DNA of 64,000 bases from an uncultured Gammaproteobacteria bacterium. Lineage in GTDB: Bacteria; Patescibacteriota; Microgenomatia; Levybacterales; UBA12049. The position numbers were made by a program, and so were the translations under genes. The notes under the pieces are model-generated. The model saw only the letters and a program-made list of their open reading frames with translations. It had not been told where the DNA came from and did no database searches. Positions 8,709 to 30,595 of the stretch are shown here, one piece after another; position 1 is the stretch's first letter, and every line of letters starts with the position of its first letter. The stretch is from contig CAZWXQ010000003.1 of assembly GCA_964637955.1 (NCBI GenBank), positions 159,154 through 223,153 of the forward strand, written 5' to 3'.

Positions 8709-8769
8709 CTTACTGAAGAAACTTATTCTACTTGCAAATAGAGTACTCATTTGATACGATTTCCAGGCT

Positions 8770-10530: not shown

Positions 10531-12084
10531 ATGGAGTATATTTATCTGTTTAAAAATAAATATTATTTACTAACTTTAATTTTTGTTATTTCATTTTCAG
10601 TACACTTAATTGGGCTTAACAAAATAGGAAGGACTTGGGATGAAGGTTTTAAAGTAGATTCTGGATATATGGCGTTGGGAAATATTGCTTCTCGAGATTT
10701 TTCAGTAAACTCGTGGTATTTGGTTCCTGAGCATCCAATGGTAGGAAAGTATGCATATGGTTTGCTTATGGGCCCTCAGACCATAAGAATCGATGATGGA
10801 AATGGACATTTTGCAAATATATCTGATTTAGATATGGTTGCAATAACTACTGGTAACTATATTAAAACTCAGTTAGGAAATAAGCTTTATATGGTTTCCT
10901 ATGATTACACGATGGCAAGGGTTTTATCGGCTCTTTTCAATAGTCTTGCAATTACTTTTACTGTGTTAATTGCGCTAAATTTCCTAAGTGCATTTTGGTC
11001 ACTACTGGCTGGAATTTTTATGCTTCTTATTCCCAGATTTGTCGTTATGGGGCAGCTCGTTACTTTTGAGTCTTTGACAATCTTTTTATTTACCCTAACC
11101 CTATTAGTATTTTATAAATTATTAAATAAACCAAAAGACATAAAACTTTACCCAATCATGGGAATACTATGTGGTTTGTTATTTTGGACGAGATATAACA
11201 ACTACTTTGTATTCGTATTTTTATTTGGATGGATGATTTTGGACTATTATTTTAAGAGAAATAAAGAAATTTTTAATTATCGTCTTATTATAATTCCTAT
11301 AATTGCATTTTTTTTGGGAATTGTAATTTGGCCACTTGTTTGGAATGATTTCCCTAAATATCTTTTGGAATCCGTTTTATTTCATAAAGATAGACTAATT
11401 CCTTCATTTTATTATTTCCATAGGCTTATTATTACTACTCCTATTCCCATAATAATCGGAGTTGGTTTTGGATTGTTTTTTGCTCTAAGAGAAAAGAAAT
11501 ATTGGAATTATTTTTTTGCATTTTGGTTCATTTTTGTTTTAATTTATCACATGATTTTGGGTGTTCCAGGTGGAGGAACTAGATTTATTTTTATAATTTA
11601 TCCTGCAGTTGGAATAATGTGTGCATTTGGATATTTTAAGCTTCTTAAGAAAAAATGGATTTATGCACTTATTCCGATACTTGCGTTTATGATAATTGAT
11701 ATGGTTTCTTATTTTCCTTACTATCTCGACTATTACAATATGGCAATTGGAGGAGTAAAAGGGGCAAAGAAATTGCAGTATGAAGTTTCTTGGTGGGGCG
11801 AAGGTCAAAGAGGAGTAGGGAAATATATAAATAATAACGTGCCTTCTGGCGCAAGTGTTGGATATTATGTAGTTCCTAGGTATGTTGCACCTGCAACGAG
11901 AACTGATTTAAATAATTTGGGGTTTGTAGATGATACGGGAGCGGTTGCTGATTATGTAATGTTAAGTAGTGGAAGAGTACCTGAGTTTGAAAAGAAATAT
12001 AATGGGAAGTATGAAGTTATTTATTCAGAAAAAGTTAGAGGAGAAAATTTGGTTTTGCTTATGAAAAAGAAAAATACCAAATAA
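10531..12084 (+). CDS. GT-C fold polytopic glycosyltransferase (PMT_2/ArnT-like)
   Basis: 517 aa with more than 10 TM segments. The first extracytoplasmic loop carries IGRTWDEGF, a DE motif typical of GT39/GT83. Confidence 0.5.
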   Translation: MEYIYLFKNKYYLLTLIFVISFSVHLIGLNKIGRTWDEGFKVDSGYMALGNIASRDFSVNSWYLVPEHPMVGKYAYGLLMGPQTIRIDDGNGHFANISDLDMVAITTGNYIKTQLGNKLYMVSYDYTMARVLSALFNSLAITFTVLIALNFLSAFWSLLAGIFMLLIPRFVVMGQLVTFESLTIFLFTLTLLVFYKLLNKPKDIKLYPIMGILCGLLFWTRYNNYFVFVFLFGWMILDYYFKRNKEIFNYRLIIIPIIAFFLGIVIWPLVWNDFPKYLLESVLFHKDRLIPSFYYFHRLIITTPIPIIIGVGFGLFFALREKKYWNYFFAFWFIFVLIYHMILGVPGGGTRFIFIIYPAVGIMCAFGYFKLLKKKWIYALIPILAFMIIDMVSYFPYYLDYYNMAIGGVKGAKKLQYEVSWWGEGQRGVGKYINNNVPSGASVGYYVVPRYVAPATRTDLNNLGFVDDTGAVADYVMLSSGRVPEFEKKYNGKYEVIYSEKVRGENLVLLMKKKNTK

Positions 12085-12087
12085 TAT

Positions 12088-13341
12088 TTATCTGCGATAG
12101 TTAAATATTAGGTAATAGATTAGATAAGCTGATGCTCCAACAGCTTGGCCAATTAATATTCCCCAGCCAATACCAACAAGTCCAAATGAGGAAAGTAAAT
12201 ATGTACTTATTATTATGGCTGATGCTCCAATAAAATTTAAAATAATAAGTGCATTTATTTTATGTCTTATTCTGAGGATAGAATTTGTAAATAAAGATAC
12301 TGGAACGAAGAGTGCTGAAATTGAAATTATTTGTAAAAATTTAAAAGCATCTTCTTCAAAATTTTTTCCAAAAAAATGAAGAATATAATTACCAAAAAAG
12401 AAAATTATAATTACACTTGGAATAAGTAGTAAGAAAGTTATTTTTGAAGCTTTTAAAATATGCTTTTTAAGTTCTGTTTCGTCATGAGATCCTTCGGTAA
12501 GTAATGACTGTGAAACGGATGAGGGTATAGTGAGTAAAAGTGTGTAGATCATAATATCTATATAATAGTATGCTGCATAAGTTGCCCCAATAGAATTAAC
12601 AATTAGAATTGGAAGAATTAAAAGTGGCGTAGATGATAAAAGGTTGGCAATGTAATTTCCGCTTGAAAATTTGCCCATGCTTTTAATTAATGGTATATTA
12701 ACACCTAAGATTAAATGAAATTTGAATTTATAAATTAATATTCCAAGACCGAAGAAAAAGCTAATTGCCATCGCAAGTGAAAAAGCTGAGAAAAGTCCAT
12801 ATGCGCCAAATGCGGAAAATATAAATAGAAATAATATTTTTAAAGTACTTAGTATTAAGCTTTTTGAAAGAACGTTTCCTGCGTCTCTGTACGCAGTAAA
12901 TATATAATCTAAAAGACTATTTAAAGATATTACGATGGTAAAGAAGATGAAAGTTGATATGTAGATTAAATTGTTATTGAGAAAAGATAGTTTTGGAGAA
13001 AATATATTTATACCTATTAAAAATATAATACATACGATTAGACTAACAAATGTTATAAGAATTGAAGATGATGAAATCATTTCATTTTTGACTTCAGATT
13101 TGGGCAAAAATCTATTTAAGCTAATATTTAATCCAAGCATGCAAAAGCCGGATATTAAGGATGAAACGGATAATAATGTAGTTGCTACGCCAATTTGATC
13201 AGTCGTAAAGTTTTTTGCTGCTATAACCCAGAAGAAAAATCCAAAACCAGCCATTACACCTGAGCTTGCTATTAAATATATAGAATTTCTGTATAAATGA
13301 TCAGATCTGAAATGATTTATGATCGTCTTGAATCTACCCAT
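12088..13341 (-). CDS. Wzx-like polysaccharide/oligosaccharide flippase (MOP superfamily)
   Basis: 417 aa with about 12 TM. The N-terminus NSIYLIASSGVMAGFGFFFWVIAAKNFTTDQIGV is typical of the polysaccharide biosynthesis protein family. Confidence 0.65.
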   Translation of the reverse strand: MGRFKTIINHFRSDHLYRNSIYLIASSGVMAGFGFFFWVIAAKNFTTDQIGVATTLLSVSSLISGFCMLGLNISLNRFLPKSEVKNEMISSSSILITFVSLIVCIIFLIGINIFSPKLSFLNNNLIYISTFIFFTIVISLNSLLDYIFTAYRDAGNVLSKSLILSTLKILFLFIFSAFGAYGLFSAFSLAMAISFFFGLGILIYKFKFHLILGVNIPLIKSMGKFSSGNYIANLLSSTPLLILPILIVNSIGATYAAYYYIDIMIYTLLLTIPSSVSQSLLTEGSHDETELKKHILKASKITFLLLIPSVIIIFFFGNYILHFFGKNFEEDAFKFLQIISISALFVPVSLFTNSILRIRHKINALIILNFIGASAIIISTYLLSSFGLVGIGWGILIGQAVGASAYLIYYLIFNYRR

Positions 13342-13485: not shown

Positions 13486-13514
13486 TTGACATTATAGGCC
13501 ATTTATGATATATA
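13486..13514 (+). promoter_or_regulatory. Sigma70-like promoter: TTGACA (13486-13491), 17-nt spacer, TATATA (13509-13514)
   Basis: The -35 is a consensus hexamer. The predicted transcription start near 13521 gives a 12-14 nt leader to the ATG at 13535. Confidence 0.45.
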
Positions 13515-13534
13515 TGGCTATTCATATCTCAATT

Positions 13535-13741
13535 ATGATTGATATAAGTAAAACTAACTTCCTTACAGTTGCAGAGGTTTCAGCACTACTGCGATTAAGT
13601 GAGCTTACTATTTATAAATACCTTAAAGAAGGTAAGCTTGAAGCAGTCGAATTTGGCGGTCATTATCGCATTTCAGAATCTTCATTATTTAAATTTATTG
13701 AAAAGCATAAAGTAAATTCAGTTAAGGAGGAAAATGAATAA
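13535..13741 (+). CDS. Small helix-turn-helix DNA-binding protein (excisionase/MerR-like HTH_17 type)
   Basis: FLTVAEVSALLRLSELTIYKYLKEGKLEAVEFGGHYRI is the canonical helix-turn-helix of the excisionase-family DNA-binding domain. The track start at 13505 falls inside the predicted promoter, so I prefer the ATG at 13535. Its 3' end carries the AAGGAGG Shine-Dalgarno site of the next gene. Confidence 0.55.
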   Translation: MIDISKTNFLTVAEVSALLRLSELTIYKYLKEGKLEAVEFGGHYRISESSLFKFIEKHKVNSVKEENE

Positions 13742-16700
13742 CGAATCTACTGGGTTGAGTATTATCGTTCCTACATATAATGAAGAAGCTAATATTAAAT
13801 TATTAGTTGAAAGAATTCACGCTGCTTTATCTGATGCAAAAATAAATTATGAAATAATTTTTGTTGATGATCACTCTACAGACCAGACTCAAAATGTGAT
13901 CAGTAATCTAGCCATTTTTTTTCCAATCATTTCAACTACTAAGGTAGGCAAAAAAGGTAAAGCATATTCAATATTAGAAGGTGCTAAATTTGCTCAGTTT
14001 GATAATTTAGCCATGATTGACGCAGATCTTCAATATCCGCCAGAAGCTCTTCCGAAAATGGTAAACATGCTTAAGTATTCTGATTTGGTAATTTCAAATA
14101 GAAAAACATATAAAGATACAAAACTTAGAAAAGTTTTAAGTCGTACATTCAAGTTTATGTTTGGAAAGGTTTTATTTGGACTTAATTATGATATTCAATC
14201 AGGACTTAAAGTGTTTACAAGAGAAGTTTTTGAAACATTAAAGTATATGCCTTCATCTTCTTGGACATTTGATCTTGAGTTTTTACATAGGGCGAAACAG
14301 GCAGGATTTCATATGAGCAGCTATGATATTACTTTCACCAAAAGAGCAAAAGGAAATTCAAAAATGGGGATCATGAAGCAAGTTATAGAAATTGGATCTA
14401 ATGCAATAAGAGTCAAAGCAAAAAGAATTAGACCTGTTCATATTGCTCCAAAAAGTTTAGATTCTATGAAAGGTGCTGGAATAGGTTATAAAAAAAGAAA
14501 GTATATTACTCATACTACTATTCCACATCACTTATCAGCTTTAACTACCGTAACTAAATTACAAAAATTTATCGTAATTATGATTGTTGGAATTTTAATT
14601 GTTGGAATACTGACAACGCCGATGCTAACTTTAAAGTTGTTAATTGGAGTTCTAAGTTTTATATACCTGGCAGATGTATTATTTAATTTATTTTTAATTT
14701 CAAAAAGCTTAAATAGTCCTCAGGAAATTATATCTTCAAAAGATGAGATTGATTCAGTGAAGAATTCAGATTTGCCAATATATTCTATACTTTGTCCACT
14801 CTATAAAGAGGCTCAGATTATTCCGCAATTTTTAGAAGCTATTGAAAAAATTTCGTGGCCAAAAGATAAGCTTGATGTAATATTACTTTTGGAAGAAGAC
14901 GATAGGGTAACGATCGATGTTGCAGCAAGAATGGATTTACCTTCTTTTGTTAGAACAATTATTGTTCCACATTCAATTCCTAAAACAAAACCTAAGGCAT
15001 GTAACTATGGACTTGCATTTGCAAAAGGAGAGTATGTAGTTGTTTATGATGCAGAAGATATCCCAGATGTAGACCAATTAAAAAAAGCATTTCTTGGTTT
15101 TAAGAAAAGTTCAGAAAACGTAATATGTCTTCAAGCGAGACTTAATTATTACAATCCTCACCAGAATTTATTAACAAGATTTTTTACAGCAGAGTACTCA
15201 CTTTGGTTTGATGTAACGCTTCCTGGAATGGTGGCGATTGAAACTGCTTTGCCATTGGGTGGAACCAGTAATCATTTCAAAACAAAATACTTACAGTCTG
15301 TTCATGGATGGGATCCATTTAATGTGACTGAAGATGCCGATTTAGGAATCCGGCTTTTTAACCAAGGATATAAAACTGCAATGATTGATTCAACAACTCT
15401 TGAAGAAGCAAATAGTAATCTTAAAAATTGGTTTAGGCAAAGATCACGTTGGATAAAAGGGTATATGCAGACATATCTGGTGCATACGAGACGAAATGGT
15501 GTTTCAAGCAATAAGAAATCAAAACACTCTTTATATTTTCAATTAATAATTGGAGGAAAAATCGCTTTTGTTCTTATAAATCCTATTCTTTGGATTGCTA
15601 CATTTGCATATTTTGCACTTTATTCATATGTAGGGCCTAGTATAGAACAGCTATATCCCAATGTCATATTTTATATGGCTATATTTTCTCTCGTAGTTGG
15701 CAATTTCCTCTTCCTTTATTACTACATGATTGGACTTGCGAAGAAAGGACAATGGAGTCTTATTAAATATGTGTTATTAGTTCCTATTTATTGGTTAATG
15801 ATAAGTATTTCTGCATTCATCGCTTTGTATCAATTAATATTTAAACCTCACTACTGGGAAAAAACAGTTCATGGTTTACACTTGAAGAAAGATGAAGTTA
15901 AAGAAAAAGTAAACGTTGTGGAAGAGATCCCCGCATATGATGATATCTCAAAGAAAAGACTTAGATATATTAATATTAAGCAAATTGCTGCAGTTACTAT
16001 ATACTCATTAGGAATATTATTCATTTTTCAAGATAATATTTTATATGCTTCATTAGTTTTGTTAAGTTCATTCTTAATTTACGTCATCTATACTTTATTG
16101 TTTCCTCTTTTAGCAGATTTATTACGCTCTGTGTTTTCAAATTTAAGTGATTTACTTAGTATGTTTAAAAAATCAAATGAGGAAAGCAGTGGAATTAGGA
16201 TTTTAGTATTAAATTGGAGAGACAGTAAGCATAAATGGGCTGGTGGGGCAGAGGTATATGCACATGAGTTAGCTAAAAGATGGGTAAAGGATGGCAATAG
16301 TGTAACAATGTTTTCTGGAAATGATGGAAAGAATAAAAGTAATGAAACTATTGATGGCGTAAATATCATAAGGCATGGAGGTTTTTATACAGTCTATTTC
16401 TGGGCTTTTGCTTACTATGTAATTAAATTTCGCGGAAAATTTGACGTAATTATTGATACTGAGAATGGAATTCCATTCTTCTCGCCTTTATATTCTAGAA
16501 AGAAAAAATTTCTCTTGATTCACCATGTTCATCAGGAAGTATTTAGAAAAAGTTTAAGATGGCCATTTTCAGACCTAGCATTATTTTTAGAAGCAAAACT
16601 TATGCCGTTTGTTTATAGAAATGTTCAAGTAATCACAGTTTCTCCGTCATCAAAAAAAGAAATTTTAAAACATAAGCTGACTAAAAAAGATCCAATAGTC

Positions 16701-17345
16701 ATCTATAACGGTGTAAATCATGACATATTTAAGCCCGCTAAAAAAAGTCAAAAGCCAATGGTCATATATCTTGGTAGACTTCAGTACTATAAAAGTTTAC
16801 ATATTTTTATAGTAGCTGCAAAAAGAATACTTAAGAAAAATCCAAAAGTTCAGTTTGTTATCGCTGGCGAAGGTGAGGAAAAAAAGAAGCTAATGAATTT
16901 TGCTAAAAAATTGGAAATTTCTGATCAAGTTAATTTTTTAGGCAAAGTAACTGAAGAAGAAAAAGTAAAGATATTTCAAGAAGCATGGGTATTTGTTAAC
17001 CCTTCTTATATGGAGGGATGGGGAATTACTACGATTGAAGCAAACGCTTGTGGAGTCCCAGCTGTTGCTTCAAATGTAGCAGGATTAAAAGATGCTATTA
17101 AAAATAATGAAACGGGATTTTTGGTTGATTATAAAGACTATGACAGTTTCACAAAAAGTATATTAGCTTTAATCGATGATGAATCATTAAGAAAAAGAAT
17201 GTCAGAAAATGCATTAAATTGGTCAAAGAAATTTAGCTGGGATATTAGCGCTGAGTTGTTCCTTGAAGTTATTAAGATCTCATTACAAGAAGATGATTAC
17301 AAATCAGAATCTTATACAAATATATTTTTAATGCAAAAAAACTAA
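13734..17345 (+). CDS. Three-domain membrane glycosyltransferase: N-terminal DPM1/GtrB-like GT2, central processive GT2 synthase (PgaC/NodC/cellulose-synthase-like), C-terminal GT4
   Basis: Domain 1 (LSIIVPTYNEE..FVDDHSTDQT) is polyprenyl-phosphate sugar synthase-like. Domain 2 has YDAEDIPD, VTEDADLG (TED) and FRQRSRW (QxxRW) and is flanked by TM helices. Domain 3 (EGWGITTIEANACGVPAVAS..ETGFLV) has the GT4 E-x7-E signature. An AAGGAGG Shine-Dalgarno site lies 7 nt upstream. 1203 aa. Confidence 0.8.
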   Translation: MNNESTGLSIIVPTYNEEANIKLLVERIHAALSDAKINYEIIFVDDHSTDQTQNVISNLAIFFPIISTTKVGKKGKAYSILEGAKFAQFDNLAMIDADLQYPPEALPKMVNMLKYSDLVISNRKTYKDTKLRKVLSRTFKFMFGKVLFGLNYDIQSGLKVFTREVFETLKYMPSSSWTFDLEFLHRAKQAGFHMSSYDITFTKRAKGNSKMGIMKQVIEIGSNAIRVKAKRIRPVHIAPKSLDSMKGAGIGYKKRKYITHTTIPHHLSALTTVTKLQKFIVIMIVGILIVGILTTPMLTLKLLIGVLSFIYLADVLFNLFLISKSLNSPQEIISSKDEIDSVKNSDLPIYSILCPLYKEAQIIPQFLEAIEKISWPKDKLDVILLLEEDDRVTIDVAARMDLPSFVRTIIVPHSIPKTKPKACNYGLAFAKGEYVVVYDAEDIPDVDQLKKAFLGFKKSSENVICLQARLNYYNPHQNLLTRFFTAEYSLWFDVTLPGMVAIETALPLGGTSNHFKTKYLQSVHGWDPFNVTEDADLGIRLFNQGYKTAMIDSTTLEEANSNLKNWFRQRSRWIKGYMQTYLVHTRRNGVSSNKKSKHSLYFQLIIGGKIAFVLINPILWIATFAYFALYSYVGPSIEQLYPNVIFYMAIFSLVVGNFLFLYYYMIGLAKKGQWSLIKYVLLVPIYWLMISISAFIALYQLIFKPHYWEKTVHGLHLKKDEVKEKVNVVEEIPAYDDISKKRLRYINIKQIAAVTIYSLGILFIFQDNILYASLVLLSSFLIYVIYTLLFPLLADLLRSVFSNLSDLLSMFKKSNEESSGIRILVLNWRDSKHKWAGGAEVYAHELAKRWVKDGNSVTMFSGNDGKNKSNETIDGVNIIRHGGFYTVYFWAFAYYVIKFRGKFDVIIDTENGIPFFSPLYSRKKKFLLIHHVHQEVFRKSLRWPFSDLALFLEAKLMPFVYRNVQVITVSPSSKKEILKHKLTKKDPIVIYNGVNHDIFKPAKKSQKPMVIYLGRLQYYKSLHIFIVAAKRILKKNPKVQFVIAGEGEEKKKLMNFAKKLEISDQVNFLGKVTEEEKVKIFQEAWVFVNPSYMEGWGITTIEANACGVPAVASNVAGLKDAIKNNETGFLVDYKDYDSFTKSILALIDDESLRKRMSENALNWSKKFSWDISAELFLEVIKISLQEDDYKSESYTNIFLMQKN

Positions 17346-17346: not shown

Positions 17347-18393
17347 ATGAAAAAAGAAAATTTAAAAAGTCATAAAAACAGTTTCAATCTACTTAACATT
17401 ATTATCTTAGAGTTTTTTGATTTACTAGTGAAAAGATTTGTAAAACCACAAAAGTTTAATGCACCAAAGGAGATAGGTAGTTATAAATTAAAATTTAAAT
17501 TTAAAAAACAATGGAAATCAGACACGGGTAAGCTAGGAATATATGAATCAATTGACGGTAAAAAAGCATTTGGAAAGACTGTTAATTATAAATATAAAAA
17601 CGCATCTTACATAAAGCTTAAAAATGAAATCGAAATTTATAAATTAATAGATAAAGTAATATCTAATTTAACAAAAAAAAATAAATCTAAATTTAATAGT
17701 TTTAGAATTCCAAAGTTCATTCATAGTAGTGAGTCTAAAAATTCGCTATCACTATTAGTCGAGTATGTGGAAGGAATTAGGGCGGATAATCTTTCTTCCG
17801 ATGATAAATTTAATCTTTATATAAAAAATATTGATTTTCTAGATAATCTTGGAAGCTCTATGTCCAATTCGCAAAAAAATACATTTTATAAAAGAACTTC
17901 GATTAATTATGTTTTACTTTATCCTTTATTATTGATTTTTGCTTTGATTAGAAATTTTGAATCAAGGAAAGAATTGCTAAGAGGAGCATTTATATTTATA
18001 AAGAATTTTAATCTTTTATTTTTGCAAAATAAATTAGTTTTAACTCATAGGGATCTTCATTTTAAAAACATAATAGTAAATGAGAAAGAAAATATATTAA
18101 TAGATTTTGAATCAGCAGTATTTACAGTTCCATATTATGATGTTGTTACAACTTTAAGATATGAATGGAATGATTTAGAATTTACTAAATTGCTAATTTC
18201 AACAATAGAGAAAGAAAATATATTAAATAATAAATTTGAAAATTATTTTAAATTATTGATGATAATCTCCTCTACCCATGGTTTGACTGCGAACAATTTT
18301 TCTAAAAAAGAAATTAATCAAATAAATAAGTTTTTGTCTTTCGGGCTTGCATATAAGTTTAATAAGACAAATATACAAGGAGCATTTTCATGA
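17347..18393 (+). CDS. Protein-kinase-like fold phosphotransferase (APH/choline-kinase family)
   Basis: LTHRDLHFKNIIVNEKENILIDFESA carries the catalytic-loop HxDxxxxN and the DFE metal-binding motif. 348 aa, inside the glycan gene array. Confidence 0.5.
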   Translation: MKKENLKSHKNSFNLLNIIILEFFDLLVKRFVKPQKFNAPKEIGSYKLKFKFKKQWKSDTGKLGIYESIDGKKAFGKTVNYKYKNASYIKLKNEIEIYKLIDKVISNLTKKNKSKFNSFRIPKFIHSSESKNSLSLLVEYVEGIRADNLSSDDKFNLYIKNIDFLDNLGSSMSNSQKNTFYKRTSINYVLLYPLLLIFALIRNFESRKELLRGAFIFIKNFNLLFLQNKLVLTHRDLHFKNIIVNEKENILIDFESAVFTVPYYDVVTTLRYEWNDLEFTKLLISTIEKENILNNKFENYFKLLMIISSTHGLTANNFSKKEINQINKFLSFGLAYKFNKTNIQGAFS

Positions 18394-19187
18394 TGAAGAA
18401 TCATTTTTTTACACTTAGAAAAATTTTATTTAGAATAACTTACCTAGTTTCTAAGTTAATTCCTGGGAAAAGCGTTTCTGTGCTTTGCTTTCACAGTATC
18501 TCAAAATCAAATGACAGATATTCTGTTTCGCCTGAGAAATTTAAAAAAGAGATTGAAATAATTTCTAAACATTCTGATTTCATAAGTTTTAAAGATTTTT
18601 TGGATAACAGAAACAAAAAAAAATCATCTGTAATAATTACATTTGATGATGGATACAAAGACATAATTGGAATAGTGCCAATTATTAAAAGATATAATAT
18701 TAAGCCGATACTATTTGTTTTATCAAATCATAGAAATGTTAATAGAATCGAAATTGAGAACGATAATAAATTATTAACTATTAAAGAAATTAGATATTTA
18801 GTAAAAAATGGTTTTGAAATTGGTTCTCACAGTGCAACTCATTCTAATTTGTCCAAAATTTCAGATAATGAATTAATTGAAGAAGTAATAAATAGCAGAA
18901 GGATTCTTCAAGAACAATTGCGAGTGGATATTAATTATTTTGCATATCCGAAAGGAATAAATAATAAAAAAATAGTCAATATCGTGAAGAAAGCAGGATA
19001 TAAATATGCTTTTACTGTTGAACCTGGAAATTTAAATGAAAAAAATGATAATTATAGACTTCCAAGAACAATTATAGATAAAACACATCAATTGTCTGAA
19101 TTTCCAGGAGTATATTCTAAAGGGACGTACATAATTAGGAAAAATACAAATAGATTTAAATTATGGGAGAGGTTTTTAAGTATATGA
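18390..19187 (+). CDS. CE4 polysaccharide deacetylase (NodB/PgaB/IcaB-like)
   Basis: ITFDDGYKD is the TFDDG motif 1 and GSHSATHSNL is the H-S-x-x-H motif of the NodB homology domain. It overlaps the upstream gene at an ATGA junction. Confidence 0.8.
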   Translation: MMKNHFFTLRKILFRITYLVSKLIPGKSVSVLCFHSISKSNDRYSVSPEKFKKEIEIISKHSDFISFKDFLDNRNKKKSSVIITFDDGYKDIIGIVPIIKRYNIKPILFVLSNHRNVNRIEIENDNKLLTIKEIRYLVKNGFEIGSHSATHSNLSKISDNELIEEVINSRRILQEQLRVDINYFAYPKGINNKKIVNIVKKAGYKYAFTVEPGNLNEKNDNYRLPRTIIDKTHQLSEFPGVYSKGTYIIRKNTNRFKLWERFLSI

Positions 19188-20095
19188 AAAAAATTAGCGT
19201 AACTGTCGGAATTCCGGCATACAATGAAGAAAAAAATATTGAAAATATATTAAATGATATTCTATTTCAGGATAAGAATTCATTTGTTCTTAAAAAAATA
19301 TATGTTTCATCTGATGGAAGTACGGATGAAACGAGTAAAATTGTTAAAAGATTTGTTAAAAAGTATGATTTTATAACTCTTTTAGATAATAAGGAAAAGT
19401 TGGGTAAATCAACAAGATTAAATGAGTTATATAAACTAAGCAATACAGATATTTATATTAATTTTGATGCAGATCAAAAGCTCGGAGATAAGTTTGTGAT
19501 AGAAGAAATAATTAAGAAATTTAATAAAAGTAAAGTAGGTGTAGTTGGGGCGTCATCTTTACCTATGAAGCCAAAGAAGTTTTTTGAAAAAATTGTAGTT
19601 GCTTGGATAAATGTGTGGATATCAGTAAGAGAAGATTATAAAAAAGGAAATACAATTCATAATCATTTGGGATGCGCTTCTGCAATGAGGAAAAATATTT
19701 ATAAAAATATTAATTTACCAAAAAATTTAATTGCTGATGAAGATTATATTTATTTTTCAGCAATGAAAATGGGATATGATTTTAGATTTGCAAAGAATGC
19801 AAGGGTATATTATAAAAGTGCTTCAAATATTAATGATTTTTTCATACAGCATTCAAGATTCTTAATGATTAAGGATATAGTTGCTGAGCATTTTGGTTCT
19901 TGGGTTTTAGATTATTATATAATCCCAAAAAAATATAAGATAAACAGTTTGCTGAAGAATTTAATTAGAAATCCAATTTATTTATCCTTTTCAATTGTTC
20001 TCCAAATGTTGTTAGTTATTTATAAAAAATTAAATAATGAAAATTATAATTCAGGTAAGTGGAAAGAAGTAAAAACATCTAAGGTCTTAATATGA
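19184..20095 (+). CDS. GT2 glycosyltransferase, tandem paralog 1 of 3
   Basis: GIPAYNEEKNIENIL..SSDGSTDET shows a GT-A fold with a DxD motif, with hydrophobic C-terminal helices. I chose the ATG at 19184; the track start at 19163 lies inside the upstream gene. Confidence 0.7.
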   Translation: MKKISVTVGIPAYNEEKNIENILNDILFQDKNSFVLKKIYVSSDGSTDETSKIVKRFVKKYDFITLLDNKEKLGKSTRLNELYKLSNTDIYINFDADQKLGDKFVIEEIIKKFNKSKVGVVGASSLPMKPKKFFEKIVVAWINVWISVREDYKKGNTIHNHLGCASAMRKNIYKNINLPKNLIADEDYIYFSAMKMGYDFRFAKNARVYYKSASNINDFFIQHSRFLMIKDIVAEHFGSWVLDYYIIPKKYKINSLLKNLIRNPIYLSFSIVLQMLLVIYKKLNNENYNSGKWKEVKTSKVLI

Positions 20096-20997
20096 AAAAC
20101 TATAAAACAATTACTGTGGGAATTCCTGCATACAATGAATCAAGAAATATTTCTTTCTTGCTTAGTGCTTTAAGCACACAAGTTATAAAAACTGGTATTT
20201 TAAAAGAGATAATTCTTATTTCTGATGGAAGCATCGATGAAACAGTTGCAACAGCAAAATCGGTTCATTTACCTTTTCTAAAAATAATTGAATACAAGCA
20301 TAGAGAAGGAAAAATGAAAAGACAAAATGAAATTGTTAAATTATCAGAATCTGATATTTTAGTGCTTTTAGATTCTGACACAATTCTTTTTGGAAATGAT
20401 TTTATTGAAAATTTAATTAATCCAATTGTTTTGGATGAAAATGTTGGATTGGTAGGTGCAAATATAAAAAGCTTAAGAGGTAAAAATTATATTCAAAGAT
20501 CATTAGCCTTAAGTCATGATTTTAAATGGAAAATGTATGAAAAAATTGATGAAGGAAATAATATTTATTTATGTCATGGAAGAGCGAGGGCATTTTCTAA
20601 AAAATTATATAAAAATATTAATTGGCCAGATGAATTTCCTGAAGATGCATACTCATATTTATGGAGCTTGAGGAATGGATTTAAATTTGCATACGCCAAG
20701 AAAGCGGTACTTTTATTTAAATCTCCAGATAATATCAATGATCATCTTAGGCAAAGTTTAAGATTTAAGACTGGAAAATATATTTATAATAAAGATTTCT
20801 CTAAAGAATTCTTAGAATCTGAATACCACATTCCTAAAAAGATTATGTTAGGTTCTATATTTTTACAATTCATAAAACATCCGATTGATATGTCAATTTA
20901 TTTACTGATAATGGTTTATATAAAAATATTTAAATCAGATACAAAAGTAGATAATAATAGATGGGAGATTTCAGAATCTACAAAGGAAATCAATTAA
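20092..20997 (+). CDS. GT2 glycosyltransferase, tandem paralog 2 of 3
   Basis: GIPAYNESRNISFLL..ISDGSIDET has the same architecture as paralog 1. It joins the upstream gene at an ATGA overlap. Confidence 0.7.
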   Translation: MKNYKTITVGIPAYNESRNISFLLSALSTQVIKTGILKEIILISDGSIDETVATAKSVHLPFLKIIEYKHREGKMKRQNEIVKLSESDILVLLDSDTILFGNDFIENLINPIVLDENVGLVGANIKSLRGKNYIQRSLALSHDFKWKMYEKIDEGNNIYLCHGRARAFSKKLYKNINWPDEFPEDAYSYLWSLRNGFKFAYAKKAVLLFKSPDNINDHLRQSLRFKTGKYIYNKDFSKEFLESEYHIPKKIMLGSIFLQFIKHPIDMSIYLLIMVYIKIFKSDTKVDNNRWEISESTKEIN

Positions 20998-21927
20998 ATG
21001 AAAAATAATAATAAATTTAAAATAGTAAACGTAGATGTTGTCGTCAGTGCTTTTAACGAAGAGCAAAACATTTCAAACTTAATTCATTCAGTATTAAAGC
21101 AAAATGAAAATGGATATAGATTAAAAAACTTAGTGATATTTTCTGATGGCTCTACGGATAATACTGTAAGAGTAATTAAGAAAATTTATGATCATAGGAT
21201 TAAAATCTTTTCTTTCAAGGATAGAAAAGGAAAATCAAGCAGATTAAATAAATATTATAAAAATTCTAATTCAGACATTTTAGTTCAAATTGATGCAGAT
21301 GTTATTTTATCTCATAAAAATGTTTTAACAGATATTGTAAGGCCAATTATTAAAAATAAAAATGTTGGAATGTGTGGGGGAAACGCTCTTCCGATGAAAG
21401 GTAAAACATTTACAGAGAAGGCGGTTAATTATACTAACCAAGCATATCAGCCTATTAAGGACAATCAAAAAAATAAAGATAATGTTTACTCAGTAAGTGG
21501 AGCGATCATGGCCTTTAGAAAAGAACTTGTAAGTATAATTAATTTGCCAGAAAATGTGATAGCAGAAGATGTTTATATTTATTTTTTATGTTTAACTAAC
21601 AAATTTCTTTATAGATATGTTCCATCTGCAGTAGTTAATTATAGATCACCGTCAAATTTAAGGGATCAGATCAAGCAGAATACAAGATTTTTAATGTCTG
21701 AAACAAAAATGAGCATGTATTTCTCAAAAGATTTAGTTGAACGCGAATCTTATTTTCCCAAGAAAATATTGGTAATTCAAATGTTAAAAATTTTCATAAA
21801 ACATCCATTTCATTGTATATATATATTTATAGTTAATAGATATTGTCAGTTGAGAGCAGAGAAGTTAGTATTAGAAATGAAGGCTGATTGGCAAATTGCT
21901 GGGAGTACTAAGAAAGGATTTGCTTAA
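20998..21927 (+). CDS. GT2 glycosyltransferase, tandem paralog 3 of 3
   Basis: VVVSAFNEEQNISNLI..FSDGSTDNT. It shares the C-terminal RFLM motif with paralog 1. Confidence 0.7.
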   Translation: MKNNNKFKIVNVDVVVSAFNEEQNISNLIHSVLKQNENGYRLKNLVIFSDGSTDNTVRVIKKIYDHRIKIFSFKDRKGKSSRLNKYYKNSNSDILVQIDADVILSHKNVLTDIVRPIIKNKNVGMCGGNALPMKGKTFTEKAVNYTNQAYQPIKDNQKNKDNVYSVSGAIMAFRKELVSIINLPENVIAEDVYIYFLCLTNKFLYRYVPSAVVNYRSPSNLRDQIKQNTRFLMSETKMSMYFSKDLVERESYFPKKILVIQMLKIFIKHPFHCIYIFIVNRYCQLRAEKLVLEMKADWQIAGSTKKGFA

Positions 21928-21947
21928 AGAATCAAGCAAGATTTGAT

Positions 21948-23501
21948 ATGAAGACTATGTTTTATAAATTATTAAAAATTGGATTTGTAGTATTTGTTGG
22001 ATTAATTCTTTCTCTATCCATAAGAGGAAATAAAGGAAATCCGACTTCTCAAGATTTAAGTAATATAAAGTGGGCAGCGAATGGGCCGTTTGAGCTATCT
22101 CCTGAAAGGGGCAGATTTGCATTGATGTACAGCATGGTTGAAGATAGATCTTTTTATTTCTCAGAACCTGTTGCTAGATTTGCAGCTCCTGATATTGGCG
22201 AAAGTAATGGGCATTATGTTTCTTTGTTTGCTCCACTAGTTTCATTTATCATAATTCCAGGATATCTTCTTGGAAAAGTTTTTGGAGTGAGTCAGGTGGG
22301 AGCATTTGCTGTGATAGCATTATTTGCGCTTTTTAATGTAATTCTATTAAGATTAATTGCAATAAGGCTTGGTGCTGGAAAATTGCCAGCTACCATAGCT
22401 TCACTTTTATTTTTATTTGCAACTCCAGCATTCTCATATGCAGTTAACTTATATCAGCATCATATCTCAACTTTTTTAATTCTTTCGAGTATATATTTGC
22501 TTTTAAAATCAAATAAGATTTGGGTATTATTTGGCGTTTTCTTTTTATGCGCTATGTCTATACCTTTGGATTATCCTAATGCATTTCTCATGTTTCCAAT
22601 TGGTGTCTATGCGCTCCTTCGAATAATTTCACTAAAAAGAGATGAGGAAAAAATAATATTTAAATTTAATTTTGTAAAGTTTTTAACTGTATTTATTATG
22701 ATTTTACCACTACTGTTCTTTTTCTGGTTTAATAAAAAATCATATGATAATCCGCTTCAGTTTTCAGGGACAGTAAAAACAGCAGAATTTAAAGACTTAA
22801 ATAATATTGATAATTTTAATAAAAAATTTATTGAAAAAAATGTGGGAGAGGAAAAAGGGAAATCAGCTTTAGGCTTTTTCAGCACACGTGATCTTCTAAA
22901 TGGTTTTTATATTCATACGATAAGTCCAGATAGAGGAATCGTATACTATGCCCCTGTGGTATTGTTTGGTATTGCTGGAATAATTTTTGCTATACGAAGA
23001 AAGATGCAAATGACAGCCGTTTTGGTTGCTGTAATAGGCGCTAATTTACTTCTTTATTCAATGTGGGGAGATCCTTGGGGAGGATGGGCATTTGGATCCA
23101 GGTATTTGATTCCGACATTTGCAATCCTTTCAATTTTTACAGCAATAGCTATAAATCGATGGGGAAATAAAATATTATTTGTCATACCATTTATAGTTGT
23201 TTCCATCTATTCGGTAGCTGTGAATGTTTTGGGAGCGATTACTACTAGCGCTATGCCACCTAAGATCGAAGTTCTGGCGCTTGAAAAAATTTCAAACACC
23301 GTTCAGAAATATGATTATTTCAGAAACTGGGATTATCTTTCTGGTGGAAATTCTAAATCATTTATCTATCAAGCATTTTTAGAAAAATATATTTCATCGG
23401 TATTGTTTTATGGAATCTTAACTATAAGCATATGTTTGGTTTTGGGAAGTTTAATCATTTATCAGTATATGTATTCAAGGAGAGGAGTATCGAATGATTA
23501 A
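21948..23501 (+). CDS. GT-C-like polytopic membrane glycosyltransferase, family A (paralog of 29150-30589)
   Basis: ERGRFALMYSMVE matches the (D/E)xxR(Y/F)A motif of ArnT/PMT-type GT-C enzymes. The motifs IDYPNA and WGDPWGGWAFGSRYL are conserved in the minus-strand paralog. Confidence 0.5.
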   Translation: MKTMFYKLLKIGFVVFVGLILSLSIRGNKGNPTSQDLSNIKWAANGPFELSPERGRFALMYSMVEDRSFYFSEPVARFAAPDIGESNGHYVSLFAPLVSFIIIPGYLLGKVFGVSQVGAFAVIALFALFNVILLRLIAIRLGAGKLPATIASLLFLFATPAFSYAVNLYQHHISTFLILSSIYLLLKSNKIWVLFGVFFLCAMSIPLDYPNAFLMFPIGVYALLRIISLKRDEEKIIFKFNFVKFLTVFIMILPLLFFFWFNKKSYDNPLQFSGTVKTAEFKDLNNIDNFNKKFIEKNVGEEKGKSALGFFSTRDLLNGFYIHTISPDRGIVYYAPVVLFGIAGIIFAIRRKMQMTAVLVAVIGANLLLYSMWGDPWGGWAFGSRYLIPTFAILSIFTAIAINRWGNKILFVIPFIVVSIYSVAVNVLGAITTSAMPPKIEVLALEKISNTVQKYDYFRNWDYLSGGNSKSFIYQAFLEKYISSVLFYGILTISICLVLGSLIIYQYMYSRRGVSND

Positions 23502-26108: not shown

Positions 26109-26123
26109 CTCTAGGACTAACTA

Positions 26124-26151
26124 TTGACAATTTATAAATTTCTGATATAAT
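26124..26151 (+). promoter_or_regulatory. Sigma70-like promoter with an extended -10: TTGACA (26124-26129), 16-nt spacer, TGaTATAAT (26143-26151)
   Basis: Consensus -35 and consensus -10 with an upstream TG, located 45 nt upstream of the sortase-substrate ATG. Confidence 0.5.
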
Positions 26152-26166
26152 CCTATAACAATTTTT

Positions 26167-26795: not shown

Positions 26796-26799
26796 TCAA

Positions 26800-30589: not shown

Positions 30590-30595
30590 TAATTA

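What the first reader, a model, noticed from the sequence alone, without database searches (positions are those of the whole stretch)
13734..17345. 1203-aa fusion of three glycosyltransferase domains (DPM1-like GT2, PgaC/NodC-like processive GT2, GT4) in one membrane protein
Domain 1 resembles polyprenyl-phosphate sugar synthases. Domain 2 carries the D, DxD, TED and QxxRW motifs of processive beta-glycan synthases, with flanking TM helices. Domain 3 is a GT4 with the E-x7-E signature. A single polypeptide that could make a lipid-linked sugar, polymerise a beta-linked chain and add a GT4-type sugar is unusual, and its middle domain has a free-standing paralog at 30596-32167. A strong Shine-Dalgarno site (AAGGAGG) precedes it; this is the only obvious SD in the region, which suggests high translation.
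Basis: partly seen in the sequence, partly recalled or inferred. Interest (0 to 1): 0.6.

Follow-up and report, generated by a model that had tools for sequence, protein, structure and literature searches.

The report
Fused triple glycosyltransferase of Patescibacteria
This is a real, intact 1203-residue membrane protein that joins three sugar-transferring enzymes; it belongs to a highly conserved but uncharacterised family of Patescibacteria and probably builds and decorates a cell-surface sugar polymer together with the membrane glycosyltransferases encoded next to it.

Summary
ORF 13734-17345 is uninterrupted and carries a DPMS/GtrB-like GT2 (aa 1-232), a BcsA/HAS-like membrane GT2 with invariant D, DxD, ED and QRSRW (aa 233-716), and a GT4 with E-x7-E (aa 813-1203). 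A free paralog of the middle domain lies at 30596-32167 (54% identity).

It is not an artefact or a one-off. More than 110 distinct homologs from independent assemblies share the architecture. Most are about 1570 aa and carry a Wzx/MOP-like flippase domain between the second GT2 and the GT4. The window's copy is a derived deletion variant; this domain was lost at least four times.

Elsewhere the same modules occur in other fusions: GT2b+GT-C, GT2a+GT-C+GH5, GT2a+GT2b+GT-C and MshEN(c-di-GMP)+GT2b. This links the protein functionally to the two GT-C-like genes that follow it in conserved synteny.

Best reading (inferred, not shown): the middle GT2 is a processive synthase. The first GT2 makes a polyprenyl-phosphate sugar for the GT-C enzymes. 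The GT4, with the flippase in ancestral forms, elongates a lipid-linked glycan.

The "only SD" claim is inaccurate. The AAGGAGG lies inside an overlapping upstream HTH_17 gene.

Function is unproven and interest is moderate.

The parts
13505..13741 (+). Small HTH_17 (excisionase/MerR-like) DNA-binding ORF whose stop overlaps the fusion gene's start by 8 nt. The true start is possibly the internal ATG at 13535.
   Evidence: ORF listing. PF12728 HTH_17 genes lie in the same position before homologs in L001, L002/L003 and L084. An HMM finds it before 8 of 30 fusion genes.
13724..13730 (+). AAGGAGG Shine-Dalgarno-like heptamer, located inside the HTH_17 coding sequence.
   Evidence: Sequence. It is the strongest but not the only SD match in the window.
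13734..14429 (+). GT2a (aa 1-232): GT-A domain of the polyprenyl-phosphate sugar synthase type (DPMS/GtrB/ArnC-like), with D46, D96xD98 and a C-terminal amphipathic helix (aa 213-229).
   Evidence: Pfam PF00535. PDB: 5mlz E 1.3e-21, 5ekp 4e-14, ArnC 1.7e-11. NCBIfam PgfS/ArnC/AglJ hits are all below equivalog cut-offs. AF2 pLDDT is about 90. Invariant residues.
14430..14714 (+). Conserved juxtamembrane hairpin (GAGxGYKxxxYITHT) plus TM hairpin TM1/TM2 (aa 233-327). It is homologous to the N-terminus of the free-standing GT2b paralog, so it belongs to the GT2b module.
   Evidence: Hydropathy. AF2 helices 275-294 and 296-327. Residues M245, G249, T259, H260, Q277, Y311, D314 and F317 are shared with the paralog.
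14715..15518 (+). GT2b catalytic domain (aa 328-595): cellulose-/hyaluronan-synthase-like GT-A with D390, D439AED442, E533D534 and QRSRW 569-573.
   Evidence: Pfam PF13641/PF13632/PF13506. NCBIfam PgaC/CelA similarity is far below cut-offs. Motifs. Invariance. Foldseek of the paralog model: BcsA E 2e-14, HAS, PcManGT TMt 0.70, Chs1.
15519..15881 (+). GT2b C-terminal membrane part (aa 596-716): two TM helices, a third hydrophobic helix (probably interface-type), and the invariant W708-E-K-T-x-H-G714 loop. The loop is inferred to be cytoplasmic and comparable in position to the BcsA gating loop.
   Evidence: AF2 helices 596-628, 643-670 and 674-703. Invariants. Parity argument: in P0009 the GT4 follows this loop directly.
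15882..16169 (+). Linker with two weak TM helices (aa 717-812): the remnant of the Wzx/MOP-like domain that most homologs carry here.
   Evidence: BLAST layout against long homologs. Inserts hit PF13440 (E 2.6e-11) and PF01943. AF2 pLDDT is 31-44. Lowest GC of the gene, 0.267. The tree shows the loss is derived.
16170..17345 (+). GT4 domain (aa 813-1203): retaining GT-B glycosyltransferase with E1094-x7-E1102.
   Evidence: Pfam PF13439 + PF00534. Foldseek: MshA/BshA/PimA/PglA, TMt about 0.8. Invariants.
17347..18393 (+). APH-family kinase-like gene (accessory).
   Evidence: Pfam PF01636. A homolog, P0102 (1876 aa), has an APH domain fused to its C-terminus. Not found next to other homologs.
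18390..19187 (+). Polysaccharide deacetylase (NodB-type), an accessory tailoring enzyme.
   Evidence: Pfam PF01522, E 4e-24. Present downstream of the fusion gene in several other loci.
19163..21927 (+). Three soluble GT2 glycosyltransferases (310, 301 and 309 aa, no TM). This is the variable part of the locus.
   Evidence: Pfam. No TM segments. Number and type vary between loci. Low GC, 0.25-0.26.
21948..25134 (+). Two polytopic GT-C-like membrane proteins (517 and 546 aa), the conserved partners of the fusion gene.
   Evidence: NCBIfam NF047440, E 4.5e-14 and 1.8e-6. 11-12 TM segments. 10 of 33 family members hit PMT_2. Invariant Asp (D61) in the conserved N-terminal NDARSH motif. Syntenic downstream of the fusion in 16 loci. 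Fused to GT2b or GT2a in other phyla.
25134..27330 (+). Conserved tail of the locus: a 324-aa N-anchored extracytoplasmic protein, a 199-aa sortase substrate (signal peptide, Ser-rich tract, LANTG, TM, KRKE) and a sortase.
   Evidence: Sequences. Sortase Pfam hit. Synteny.
27559..32167 (-). Second module on the opposite strand: free-standing GT2b paralog (30596-32167) followed by two GT-C-like membrane proteins (29150-30589 and 27559-29160).
10531..13341 (.). Upstream neighbours: a PMT_2-type GT-C (10531-12084, +) and a divergent 417-aa 11-TM MOP/MatE-like protein (12088-13341, -), a candidate replacement flippase.
   Evidence: Pfam: PMT_2 E 4.3e-6; MatE 3.8e-6 and Polysacc_synt 6.4e-5. The same gene lies upstream in L001. 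No detectable homology to the family's internal MOP-like domain.

Best explanation
The gene encodes a genuine polytopic membrane enzyme that is one subunit of a surface-glycan assembly line conserved in Patescibacteria.

Shown by sequence and structure prediction:
- There are three catalytically intact GT domains on the cytoplasmic side, held by one membrane region.
- The family is strongly conserved: about 52-88% identity across the aligned homologs.
- Its ancestral form carries a fourth module, a Wzx/MOP-like domain.

Inferred mechanism:
1. GT2b (aa 233-716) is a processive, membrane-embedded synthase of the BcsA/HAS type. It polymerises a beta-linked backbone from a nucleotide sugar and passes it across the membrane.
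2. GT2a (aa 1-232) transfers a sugar from a nucleotide sugar to polyprenyl phosphate.
3. The resulting polyprenyl-P-sugar, or a short glycan built on it by the GT4 domain and the variable soluble GT2s, is flipped. The fused Wzx-like domain does this in most homologs. In this window it is presumably done by another flippase, such as the divergent MOP-like gene at 12088-13341.
4. The two adjacent GT-C-like enzymes (21948-25134) use the flipped donor outside the membrane to decorate or extend the nascent polymer. This is analogous to the GacI/J/K/L and WpsA/B/G/J multi-component glycosylation systems of streptococci and lactococci.

The sugar identity, the acceptor and the final anchoring are unknown.
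For: Reality and conservation:
- Intact ORF.
- All 120 best 90%-identity clusters carry all three GT domains.
- Collinear homologs from independent assemblies.
- Catalytic residues of all three domains are invariant in 119 sequences.
- The AF2 model has mean pLDDT 81, and each domain is well folded.

GT2a as a polyprenyl-P sugar synthase:
- The best PDB and NCBIfam relatives are all of that class: DPMS E 1.3e-21, GtrB, ArnC, PgfS, AglJ.

GT2b as a synthase:
- D, DxD, ED and QxxRW are invariant.
- Nearest folds are BcsA, HAS and Chs1.
- Orthologs in other phyla (about 47% identity) carry 1-6 N-terminal MshEN c-di-GMP receptor domains. This domain type also regulates the exopolysaccharide synthase NfrB (PMC8669469).

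Functional coupling of GT2a, GT2b and GT-C:
- Fusion gene -> GTC1 -> GTC2 synteny in 16 Patescibacteria loci.
- GT2b+GT-C fusions in Chloroflexota loci (L050-L052, L054) and in proteins P0197, P0200 and P0220.
- A GT2a+GT-C+GH5 fusion in L047.
- A GT2a+GT2b+PMT_2 triple fusion, P0151.
- GT2b followed by a GT-C-like gene in 13 of 37 non-Patescibacteria loci, and a GT2a-like gene nearby in 8.

GT-C nature of the partners:
- NF047440 hits. PMT_2 hits in 10 of 33 family members. An invariant Asp (D61) in the conserved N-terminal NDARSH motif.

MOP-GT4 as a unit:
- Stand-alone proteins of about 800-900 aa with the same MOP-like domain followed by the GT4.

The logic is known:
- C55-P-GlcNAc synthase + cytoplasmic GTs + Wzx flippase + GT-C transferase (PMC10821137).

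Topology:
- In P0009 the GT4 directly follows the W-E-K-T-x-H-G loop. That loop and the GT4 are therefore on the same, cytoplasmic, side.
Against: - No biochemical datum exists for any family member. Literature searches found none.
- GT2b has only about 4 true TM helices, which is fewer than BcsA or HAS. Its best target-normalised structural match is PcManGT (TMt 0.70). This is an archaeal enzyme of N-glycan biosynthesis with a 'minimal cellulose-synthase-like fold', so translocation is not assured.
- All NCBIfam equivalog scores are far below cut-off, so substrate predictions are weak.
- The window's copy lacks the flippase domain. The neighbouring MOP-like gene shows no detectable homology to it.
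- That domain was lost at least 4 times, so it is dispensable.
- The GT-C assignment rests on weak profile hits. The family profile found no PDB match.
- pTM of 0.54 means the mutual arrangement of the domains is not predicted.
Confidence: 0.45

Rival explanations
1. One lipid-linked-oligosaccharide pathway for protein glycosylation. GT2a, GT2b (acting like PcManGT, without translocation), GT4 and the soluble GT2s all build or feed a polyprenyl-linked glycan. The PMT-like GT-C enzymes then transfer it to Ser-rich surface proteins, such as the sortase substrate encoded at 26196-26795.
For: - PMT_2 similarity of the GT-C partners.
- PcManGT is the best target-normalised fold match of GT2b.
- A Ser-rich LANTG protein and a sortase are syntenic with the locus in several species.
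- The DPMS + PMT pairing is the known logic of actinobacterial protein O-mannosylation (own knowledge).
Against: - The QxxRW motif and the c-di-GMP (MshEN) regulated orthologs point to a polymer synthase.
- The GT2b/GT-C pair is conserved in phyla where no sortase or p199 gene was detected nearby.
- p199 and sortase were detected downstream of the fusion gene in only 5 of the loci examined.
Confidence: 0.2
2. Lipoglycan or glycolipid factory. The GT4 (PimA-like) and/or GT2b (GT21-like processive lipid glycosyltransferase) glycosylate a membrane lipid. The product is flipped, then extended outside by GT-C enzymes using the GT2a-made polyprenyl-P-sugar, as in mycobacterial PIM/LM/LAM synthesis.
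For: - GT4 matches PimA/PimB' (E about 1e-13).
- GT2b passes the Pfam GT21 cut-off (31.9 against 21.7 bits).
- The combination DPMS-like + flippase-like + several GT-C mirrors the LM/LAM logic (own knowledge).
Against: - The GT4's best matches are MshA and BshA, which act on small soluble acceptors, so acceptor type cannot be read from homology.
- The GT21 match is much weaker than the synthase-type matches.
- No lipid-binding feature was tested.
Confidence: 0.15
3. The three enzymes are unrelated in pathway and are fused only for co-expression or membrane tethering in a reduced genome.
For: Domain order and content vary between relatives: GT2a+GT2b, GT2b+GT4 and MOP+GT4 forms exist, and the MOP domain has been lost repeatedly.
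Against: - The same modules are repeatedly fused or adjacent in different combinations and in several phyla.
- Synteny with the GT-C genes is very stable.
- Conservation is high across the aligned family.
- This pattern is expected of a pathway or complex, not of chance tethering.
Confidence: 0.1
4. The long ORF is an assembly or sequencing artefact that joins separate genes.
For: None was found. The linker at aa 717-812 is poorly predicted (pLDDT 31-44) and has the lowest GC of the gene.
Against: - Identical architecture and length in P0002 (88%) and P0003 (70%) from other assemblies.
- Collinear alignments in all 119 homologs, including residues that are invariant at the first junction.
Confidence: 0.01

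Closest known systems
Multi-component transmembrane glycosylation systems (GtrA/B/C; S. pyogenes GacI/J/K/L; L. lactis WpsA/B + WpsC-F + WpsG + WpsJ)
   Same: The component set matches. [quoted passage not shown]
   Different: - Here the GT2, the flippase-like domain (in most homologs) and a GT4 are in one polypeptide, fused to a synthase-type GT2.
- No GacJ/WpsB-like activator was identified.
- The acceptor polymer would be made by a synthase, not by an ABC-transporter pathway.
- None of this has been tested biochemically.
Processive membrane-embedded GT2 synthases (BcsA, hyaluronan synthase, chitin synthase/NodC, PgaC, NfrB)
   Same: - A GT-A domain with D, DxD, ED and QxxRW between TM helices.
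- Nearest solved folds are BcsA, HAS and Chs1.
- Orthologs carry c-di-GMP-binding MshEN domains, as NfrB does (PMC8669469).
   Different: - Only about 18% identity to BcsA.
- Scores are far below the PgaC and CelA family cut-offs (104.9 against 422.3 bits; 74.5 against 699.1 bits).
- Fewer TM helices.
- W-E-K-T-x-H-G replaces the FxVTxK loop.
- The obligatory partner is a GT-C-like protein rather than BcsB or PgaD.
Polyprenyl-phosphate sugar synthases (DPMS/Dpm1, GtrB, ArnC, PgfS, AglJ); M. tuberculosis Ppm1 as a fused example
   Same: The GT-A domain, DxD motif and C-terminal amphipathic helix. The best sequence matches of aa 1-232 all fall in this class.
   Different: - The domain has no TM anchor of its own. 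The TM hairpin that follows is homologous to the N-terminus of the free GT2b paralog.
- All equivalog cut-offs are missed.
PcManGT (Pyrobaculum calidifontis membrane mannosyltransferase, PDB 6yv7)
   Same: A minimal cellulose-synthase-like fold with few TM helices. It is the highest target-normalised TM-score (0.70) for the GT2b paralog model.
   Different: It is an archaeal enzyme assigned to N-glycan biosynthesis. Sequence identity is 18%. It has no GT-C partner and no fusions of the kind seen here.
Multi-domain polysaccharide polymerases (K4CP/KfoC, PmHAS, WbdA, WbbB)
   Same: Several GT domains in one polypeptide that act on one glycan.
   Different: Those are peripheral or soluble enzymes that elongate a single chain. 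None combines a polyprenyl-P sugar synthase, a membrane synthase, a flippase-like domain and a GT4 (own knowledge).

Membership tests
Polyprenyl-phosphate sugar synthase GT2 (DPMS/GtrB/ArnC class) | GT-A domain with a catalytic DxD motif and sequence similarity to characterised members | tested here: met
   PF00535, aa 9-168. D96-A-D98 and D46 are invariant. 5mlz E 1.3e-21, 5ekp 4e-14, ArnC 1.7e-11.
Polyprenyl-phosphate sugar synthase GT2 (DPMS/GtrB/ArnC class) | Score above the curated cut-off of a specific equivalog (ArnC, PgfS, AglJ) | tested here: not met
   ArnC 68 against 529 bits; PgfS 72.2 against 500; AglJ 58.3 against 325.
Polyprenyl-phosphate sugar synthase GT2 (DPMS/GtrB/ArnC class) | Interface helices and a membrane anchor that present the lipid phosphate | tested here: inconclusive
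   AF2 shows helix 213-229, then a TM hairpin at 275-327. That hairpin is homologous to the GT2b module's N-terminus.
Polyprenyl-phosphate sugar synthase GT2 (DPMS/GtrB/ArnC class) | Transfer of a sugar to polyprenyl phosphate | not testable with these tools
   Requires an enzyme assay.
Processive membrane-embedded GT2 synthases (BcsA/HAS/Chs/NodC/PgaC) | D, DxD, (T)ED and QxxRW motifs | tested here: met
   D390, D439AED442, T532-E533-D534 and Q569RSRW573. All are invariant or nearly so.
Processive membrane-embedded GT2 synthases (BcsA/HAS/Chs/NodC/PgaC) | Fold similarity that includes the membrane part | tested here: met
   Foldseek of the paralog model (pLDDT 83.6): BcsA E 2e-14 (TMq 0.56), HAS 1e-12, Chs1 8e-9.
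Processive membrane-embedded GT2 synthases (BcsA/HAS/Chs/NodC/PgaC) | A transmembrane channel able to pass the polymer | tested here: inconclusive
   Only 2+2 TM helices plus one hydrophobic, probably interface, helix. The channel could not be inspected.
Processive membrane-embedded GT2 synthases (BcsA/HAS/Chs/NodC/PgaC) | Membership of PgaC/IcaA or CelA equivalogs | tested here: not met
   TIGR03937: 104.9 against 422.3 bits. TIGR03030: 74.5 against 699.1 bits.
GT4 retaining GT-B glycosyltransferases | Two Rossmann-like domains and the E-x7-E motif | tested here: met
   PF13439 + PF00534. E1094 and E1102 are invariant. Foldseek TMt about 0.8 to MshA/BshA/PimA/PglA.
GT4 retaining GT-B glycosyltransferases | Membership of a specific equivalog (MshA, BshA, EpsE) | tested here: not met
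   MshA 126.8 against 462.5 bits; BshA 102.1 against 273.7; EpsE 101.3 against 400.
Multi-component transmembrane glycosylation system (Gtr / GacIJKL / WpsABGJ type) | A GT-C fold transferase encoded with the polyprenyl-P sugar synthase | tested here: met
   GT-C-like genes at 21948-25134, 27559-30589 and 10531-12084. PMT_2 hits in 10 of 33 family members. Synteny and fusions. The fold itself was not modelled.
Multi-component transmembrane glycosylation system (Gtr / GacIJKL / WpsABGJ type) | A dedicated flippase (GtrA- or Wzx-type) | tested here: inconclusive
   Long homologs have a fused PF13440/PF01943 domain. The window's protein keeps only a remnant. The neighbouring MOP/MatE-like gene has weak Pfam hits and no homology to that domain.
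Multi-component transmembrane glycosylation system (Gtr / GacIJKL / WpsABGJ type) | Extracytoplasmic transfer of the sugar to a polymer | not testable with these tools
   Requires genetics and glycan analysis.

The most novel reading that the evidence does not exclude
The trio of GT2b synthase, GT2a polyprenyl-P-sugar synthase and GT-C partner is a so far undescribed class of glycan-assembly system. It occurs in several phyla: Patescibacteria, Chloroflexota, Dormibacterota, Bacillota and Actinomycetota. In this class, a chain made by a synthase is decorated, extended or anchored co-synthetically by a GT-C that uses a lipid-linked donor made in cis. In Patescibacteria, where it is fused with a Wzx-like domain and a GT4 into one mega-enzyme and kept at more than 50% identity, it would make the principal non-peptidoglycan wall polymer of these organisms.
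Probability: 0.3. Interest if true: 0.7.

Novelty: new variant of a known kind. Interest (0 to 1): 0.45.

Why it matters
Patescibacteria (CPR) make up a large share of bacterial diversity, yet nothing is known biochemically about their envelope glycans, which presumably mediate attachment to hosts.

This protein family is strongly conserved within the group and sits directly beside the cell-wall and division gene cluster. It combines in one chain steps that other bacteria distribute over four to six proteins. That makes it a compact, testable entry point for heterologous expression and cryo-EM into how these organisms build their surface.

The network of alternative fusions (GT2b+GT-C, GT2a+GT-C+GH5, GT2a+GT2b+GT-C, MshEN+GT2b) also predicts a functional partnership between a synthase-type GT2 and a GT-C enzyme. 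I found no description of this partnership in the papers searched.

Tried and rejected
- Assembly artefact: rejected, because homologs from independent assemblies are collinear.
- Is the upstream MOP/MatE-like gene (12088-13341) the relocated internal flippase domain? BLAST, hhalign and an HMM of 112 internal domains found no significant similarity. It can be at most a non-orthologous replacement.
- Is the 324-aa protein (25134-26108) a glycoside hydrolase like the GH5 domain fused in L047?
  - No Pfam or NCBIfam hit.
  - The PDB profile search gave only E 0.059 to a beta-glucuronidase.
  - hhalign against the L047 GH5 region gave probability 1.4%.
  - Not supported.
- PDB profile search for the GT-C-like family: no match.
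- Organism and record look-ups: no names were returned for the clusters, and P0001 was not found on a contig.
- Literature searches for this fusion or family in Patescibacteria found nothing specific. 'XagB' is only an automated label on one homolog.
- The 'two-domain fusion' that one search suggested in Paenibacillus and Desulforamulus turned out to be adjacent genes, not fusions.
- tRNA scan of the window: none found.

Full report
**1. Checking the observation**

The ORF 13734..17345 (+) is listed as one 1203-codon frame. Its translation has no internal stop, and the DNA has no ambiguous bases.

Pfam finds three glycosyltransferase regions:
- PF00535 at aa 9-168.
- PF13641/PF13632 at aa 350-635.
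- PF13439 + PF00534 at aa 837-1162.

- Domain 1: VDDHSTD 44-50 and IDADLQ 95-100.
- Domain 2: LLEEDD 385-390, YDAEDIP 438-444, VTEDADLG 531-538 and QRSRW 569-573.
- Domain 3: EGWGITTIE 1094-1102.

Hydropathy gives seven TM-like segments. The free-standing paralog at 30596-32167 (-) shares 54% identity over 387 residues with aa 335-720 (E 3e-166).

**2. Is the fusion real?**

A search of 5.8 billion proteins returned an identical NCBI protein (P0001) and 119 further clusters. All of these carry all three GT Pfam domains.
- P0002 (88% identity, 1203 aa), P0003 (70%, 1217 aa), P0062 and P0111 align collinearly over 97-100% of the query.
- In a 119-sequence alignment the catalytic residues of all three domains are invariant. 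So are residues in the first junction: G249, T259 and H260.
- These sequences come from independent assemblies (NCBI, JGI, ENA, Logan), so a frameshift or chimera is excluded for practical purposes.

**3. The window's copy is a shortened form**

Of the 120 proteins listed, 112 are 1500-1922 aa long.
- BLAST shows the long homologs carry roughly 350-430 extra residues (about 400 in most) between query residues about 720 and 800.
- The inserts are polytopic. They match Polysacc_synt_3 (PF13440, E 2.6e-11) and Polysacc_synt (PF01943), which are the Wzx/MOP flippase families.
- A neighbour-joining tree on 1075 shared columns places the short forms in at least four separate positions among long forms: the window + P0002 + P0003 + P0004 clade, then P0009, P0062 and P0111 separately. 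The domain was therefore lost repeatedly.
- In the window's protein the remnant is aa 717-812, with two weak TM helices. It has AF2 pLDDT 31-44 and the lowest GC of the gene.
- In P0009 the GT4 follows the conserved loop W-E-K-T-x-H-G almost directly. The GT4 must be cytoplasmic to reach nucleotide sugars, so that loop is cytoplasmic too.
- It follows that only two of the three hydrophobic helices after QRSRW span the membrane. This arrangement resembles BcsA (two TM helices, an interface helix, then the gating loop).

At 50% clustering, the 1.84-billion-protein library shows other architectures:
- About 15 full-architecture representatives.
- GT2a+GT2b proteins of about 740 aa.
- GT2b+GT4 forms.
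- Many proteins of about 800-900 aa consisting of the same MOP-like domain (HMM E down to 1e-158) followed by the GT4.

The long form is therefore a fusion of two two-domain modules, [GT2a-GT2b] and [MOP-GT4].

**4. What each domain resembles**

*GT2a (aa 1-232).*
- The best PDB sequence matches are Pyrococcus dolichyl-phosphate mannose synthase (5mlz, E 1.3e-21), cyanobacterial GtrB (5ekp) and ArnC.
- NCBIfam similarities are to PgfS, ArnC and AglJ, all below the equivalog cut-offs.
- All of these enzymes charge a polyprenyl phosphate with one sugar.

*GT2b.*
- An AF2 model of the free paralog (pLDDT 83.6, pTM 0.83) matches BcsA (E 2e-14), hyaluronan synthases, the minimal cellulose-synthase-like PcManGT (TMt 0.70) and chitin synthases.
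- Its PgaC and CelA scores are far below the family cut-offs.
- The TM hairpin at aa 275-327 and the preceding conserved hairpin are shared with the paralog's N-terminus. They therefore belong to this module.

*GT4.*
- Foldseek gives TMt about 0.8 to MshA, BshA, PimA and PglA.

The full-length AF2 model has mean pLDDT 81.4 but pTM 0.54. The domains are reliable; their mutual arrangement is not.

**5. Context**

*Immediately upstream.* A 78-codon HTH_17 ORF (13505-13741) overlaps the start codon by 8 nt and contains the AAGGAGG. The same pair occurs in L001, L002 and L084, and before 8 of 30 fusion genes tested.

*SD survey.* Most genes in the window have no SD. AAGGAG also precedes 18390 and 23494. 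The heptamer is the strongest but not the only SD, and it fits translational coupling.

*Downstream order in the window*:
- An APH-like kinase.
- A polysaccharide deacetylase.
- Three soluble GT2s.
- Two polytopic GT-C-like proteins of 517 and 546 aa (NF047440, E 4.5e-14 and 1.8e-6).
- A 324-aa N-anchored protein.
- A 199-aa protein with signal peptide, Ser-rich tract, LANTG, TM and KRKE.
- A sortase.

*Synteny.* The order fusion -> variable GTs -> GTC1 -> GTC2 -> p324 (-> p199 -> sortase) recurs in 14-16 Patescibacteria loci.

*Opposite strand.* The paralog is followed by two more GT-C-like genes (27559-30589).

*Further upstream.* A PMT_2-type GT-C and a divergent MOP/MatE-like gene lie upstream, preceded by the dcw cluster: Mur ligase, MurA, MraY, FtsW, MurG, FtsA and FtsZ.

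**6. Evidence from other phyla**

A scan of one genome per GTDB species found at least 597 relatives.
- The full fusion occurs in Woese-, Gottesman-, Roizman-, Davies-, Levy- and Amesbacteria and in Dojkabacteria.
- GT2b alone (about 47% identity) occurs in Chloroflexota, Actinomycetota, Bacillota, Dormibacterota and others.
- In 13 of 37 such loci a GT-C-like gene directly follows GT2b. In 8 a GT2a-like gene is within 6 kb.

The modules also appear as alternative fusions:
- GT2b+GT-C in four Chloroflexota loci, in one reading frame, and in P0197, P0200 and P0220.
- GT2a+GT-C-like+GH5 in Ca. Nephthysia, L047.
- GT2a+GT2b+PMT_2 in P0151.

In Paenibacillus the GT2b ortholog has an N-terminal MshEN domain. 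It sits in a repeated module of NDP-sugar pyrophosphorylase, then MshEN-GT2b, then GT2, with a PMT_2 gene nearby. Other orthologs carry 3-6 MshEN domains. MshEN is a c-di-GMP receptor known to be fused to glycosyltransferases (PMC5013675). It controls the exopolysaccharide synthase NfrB (PMC8669469).

These independent fusions and adjacencies argue that GT2a, GT2b and the GT-C act in one process, and that GT2b is a regulated polysaccharide synthase in organisms that have c-di-GMP signalling.

**7. Mechanism proposed**

Shown:
- Intact catalytic motifs.
- Membrane embedding.
- Conservation.
- The fusion and synteny network.

Inferred:
1. GT2b polymerises and probably exports a beta-linked chain.
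2. GT2a makes a polyprenyl-P-sugar.
3. The GT4 and the soluble GT2s may extend it on the cytoplasmic face.
4. The Wzx-like domain flips it. That domain is lost in this window, and the function is possibly taken over by 12088-13341, although no homology was detectable.
5. The GT-C proteins transfer it to the polymer outside.

This is the logic demonstrated for GacI/J/K/L and proposed, with biochemical support, for lactococcal WpsA/B, WpsC-F, WpsG and WpsJ (PMC10821137). Here it is joined to a synthase.

Three observations fit strain-specific side chains on a conserved core: the variable soluble GT genes, their low GC (0.25-0.26), and the accessory deacetylase and kinase.

I give this model 0.45. 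The rivals are:
- A protein O-glycosylation pathway aimed at the Ser-rich sortase substrate (0.2).
- A lipoglycan pathway of the PIM/LM type (0.15).
- Mere tethering of unrelated enzymes (0.1).
- An artefact (0.01).

**8. Comparison with known families, and novelty**

Each domain is an ordinary member of a large GT superfamily, but none reaches the cut-off of any characterised equivalog. The fused architecture is deposited in databases only as 'glycosyltransferase'. I found no paper that describes it.

It is best called a new variant of a known kind: a multi-component transmembrane glycosylation system merged with a synthase-type GT2 in one polypeptide.

Its sense of rarity is overstated for this lineage, and the SD remark needs correcting.

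Interest is moderate (0.45). The family is large, strongly conserved and uncharacterised in a poorly understood group of bacteria, and the GT2b/GT-C partnership may be new. All functional statements, however, remain inference from homology and context.

Noticed in passing
window 26196-27330: The 199-aa protein has a signal peptide, a Ser-rich tract (SSSSSSSNSNDS), an LANTG sorting motif, a TM helix and a KRKE tail. The adjacent sortase gene overlaps its 3' end. The pair is syntenic with the glycan locus in several Patescibacteria (L002, L004, L006, L014, L016). It is possibly a glycosylated surface protein.
   Followed up: partly
window 25134-26108: A conserved 324-aa protein with one N-terminal TM helix and invariant E154, E156 and E253 follows the two GT-C-like genes in at least 14 loci. 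It has no Pfam, NCBIfam or PDB match. My guess that it is a glycoside hydrolase was not supported.
   Followed up: partly
window 27559-32167 (- strand): A second module converges on the sortase region from the opposite strand: a free GT2b paralog followed by two GT-C-like membrane proteins. It has no GT2a or GT4 of its own.
   Followed up: partly
window 17347-18393; protein P0102: An APH-family kinase-like gene starts immediately after the fusion gene's stop codon (one intervening base). In homolog P0102 (1876 aa) an APH domain is fused to the C-terminus. There is weak similarity to the anomeric sugar kinase AmgK (E 4e-4). It may be a sugar-salvage or glycan-phosphorylating accessory.
   Followed up: no
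window 18000-22000: The soluble GT2 genes have clearly lower GC (0.25-0.26) than their surroundings (about 0.32). They are also the part of the locus that differs between species, which suggests cassette exchange.
   Followed up: no
window 251-9957: A division/cell-wall cluster lies directly upstream of the glycan locus: Mur ligase, MurA, MraY, FtsW, MurG, FtsA and FtsZ. The 199-aa ORF at 9048-9647 (-) lies antisense inside ftsZ and is probably spurious.
   Followed up: partly
window 45571-61131: A second sugar-modification cluster. It contains a GT4, an acyltransferase_3, a formyltransferase, a 232-aa GT2, a GFO/IDH/MocA oxidoreductase, two DegT-type aminotransferases and a UDP-sugar dehydrogenase. 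This looks like a pathway for a di-amino or N-formyl/acyl uronic sugar (WbpA/B/E-like by analogy from memory).
   Followed up: no
window 32345-37233: A membrane-fusion-protein adaptor and an RND permease are encoded next to the glycan genes, in what is presumed to be a single-membrane organism. Their role, whether lipid/glycolipid export or drug efflux, is unclear.
   Followed up: no
L070 7531-19962 (Paenibacillus macquariensis): Two tandem copies of a module: NDP-sugar pyrophosphorylase, then MshEN-GT2b (about 766 aa), then a DPMS-like GT2. A PMT_2 GT-C gene follows. This is a cultivable organism in which the GT2b/GT2a/GT-C partnership and its c-di-GMP control could be tested.
   Followed up: partly
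whole window: Shine-Dalgarno matches are rare. Most of the 49 larger ORFs have none. The few good ones lie at genes that overlap or abut an upstream gene (1662, 13734, 18390, 23494). No tRNA genes occur in the 64 kb.
   Followed up: partly
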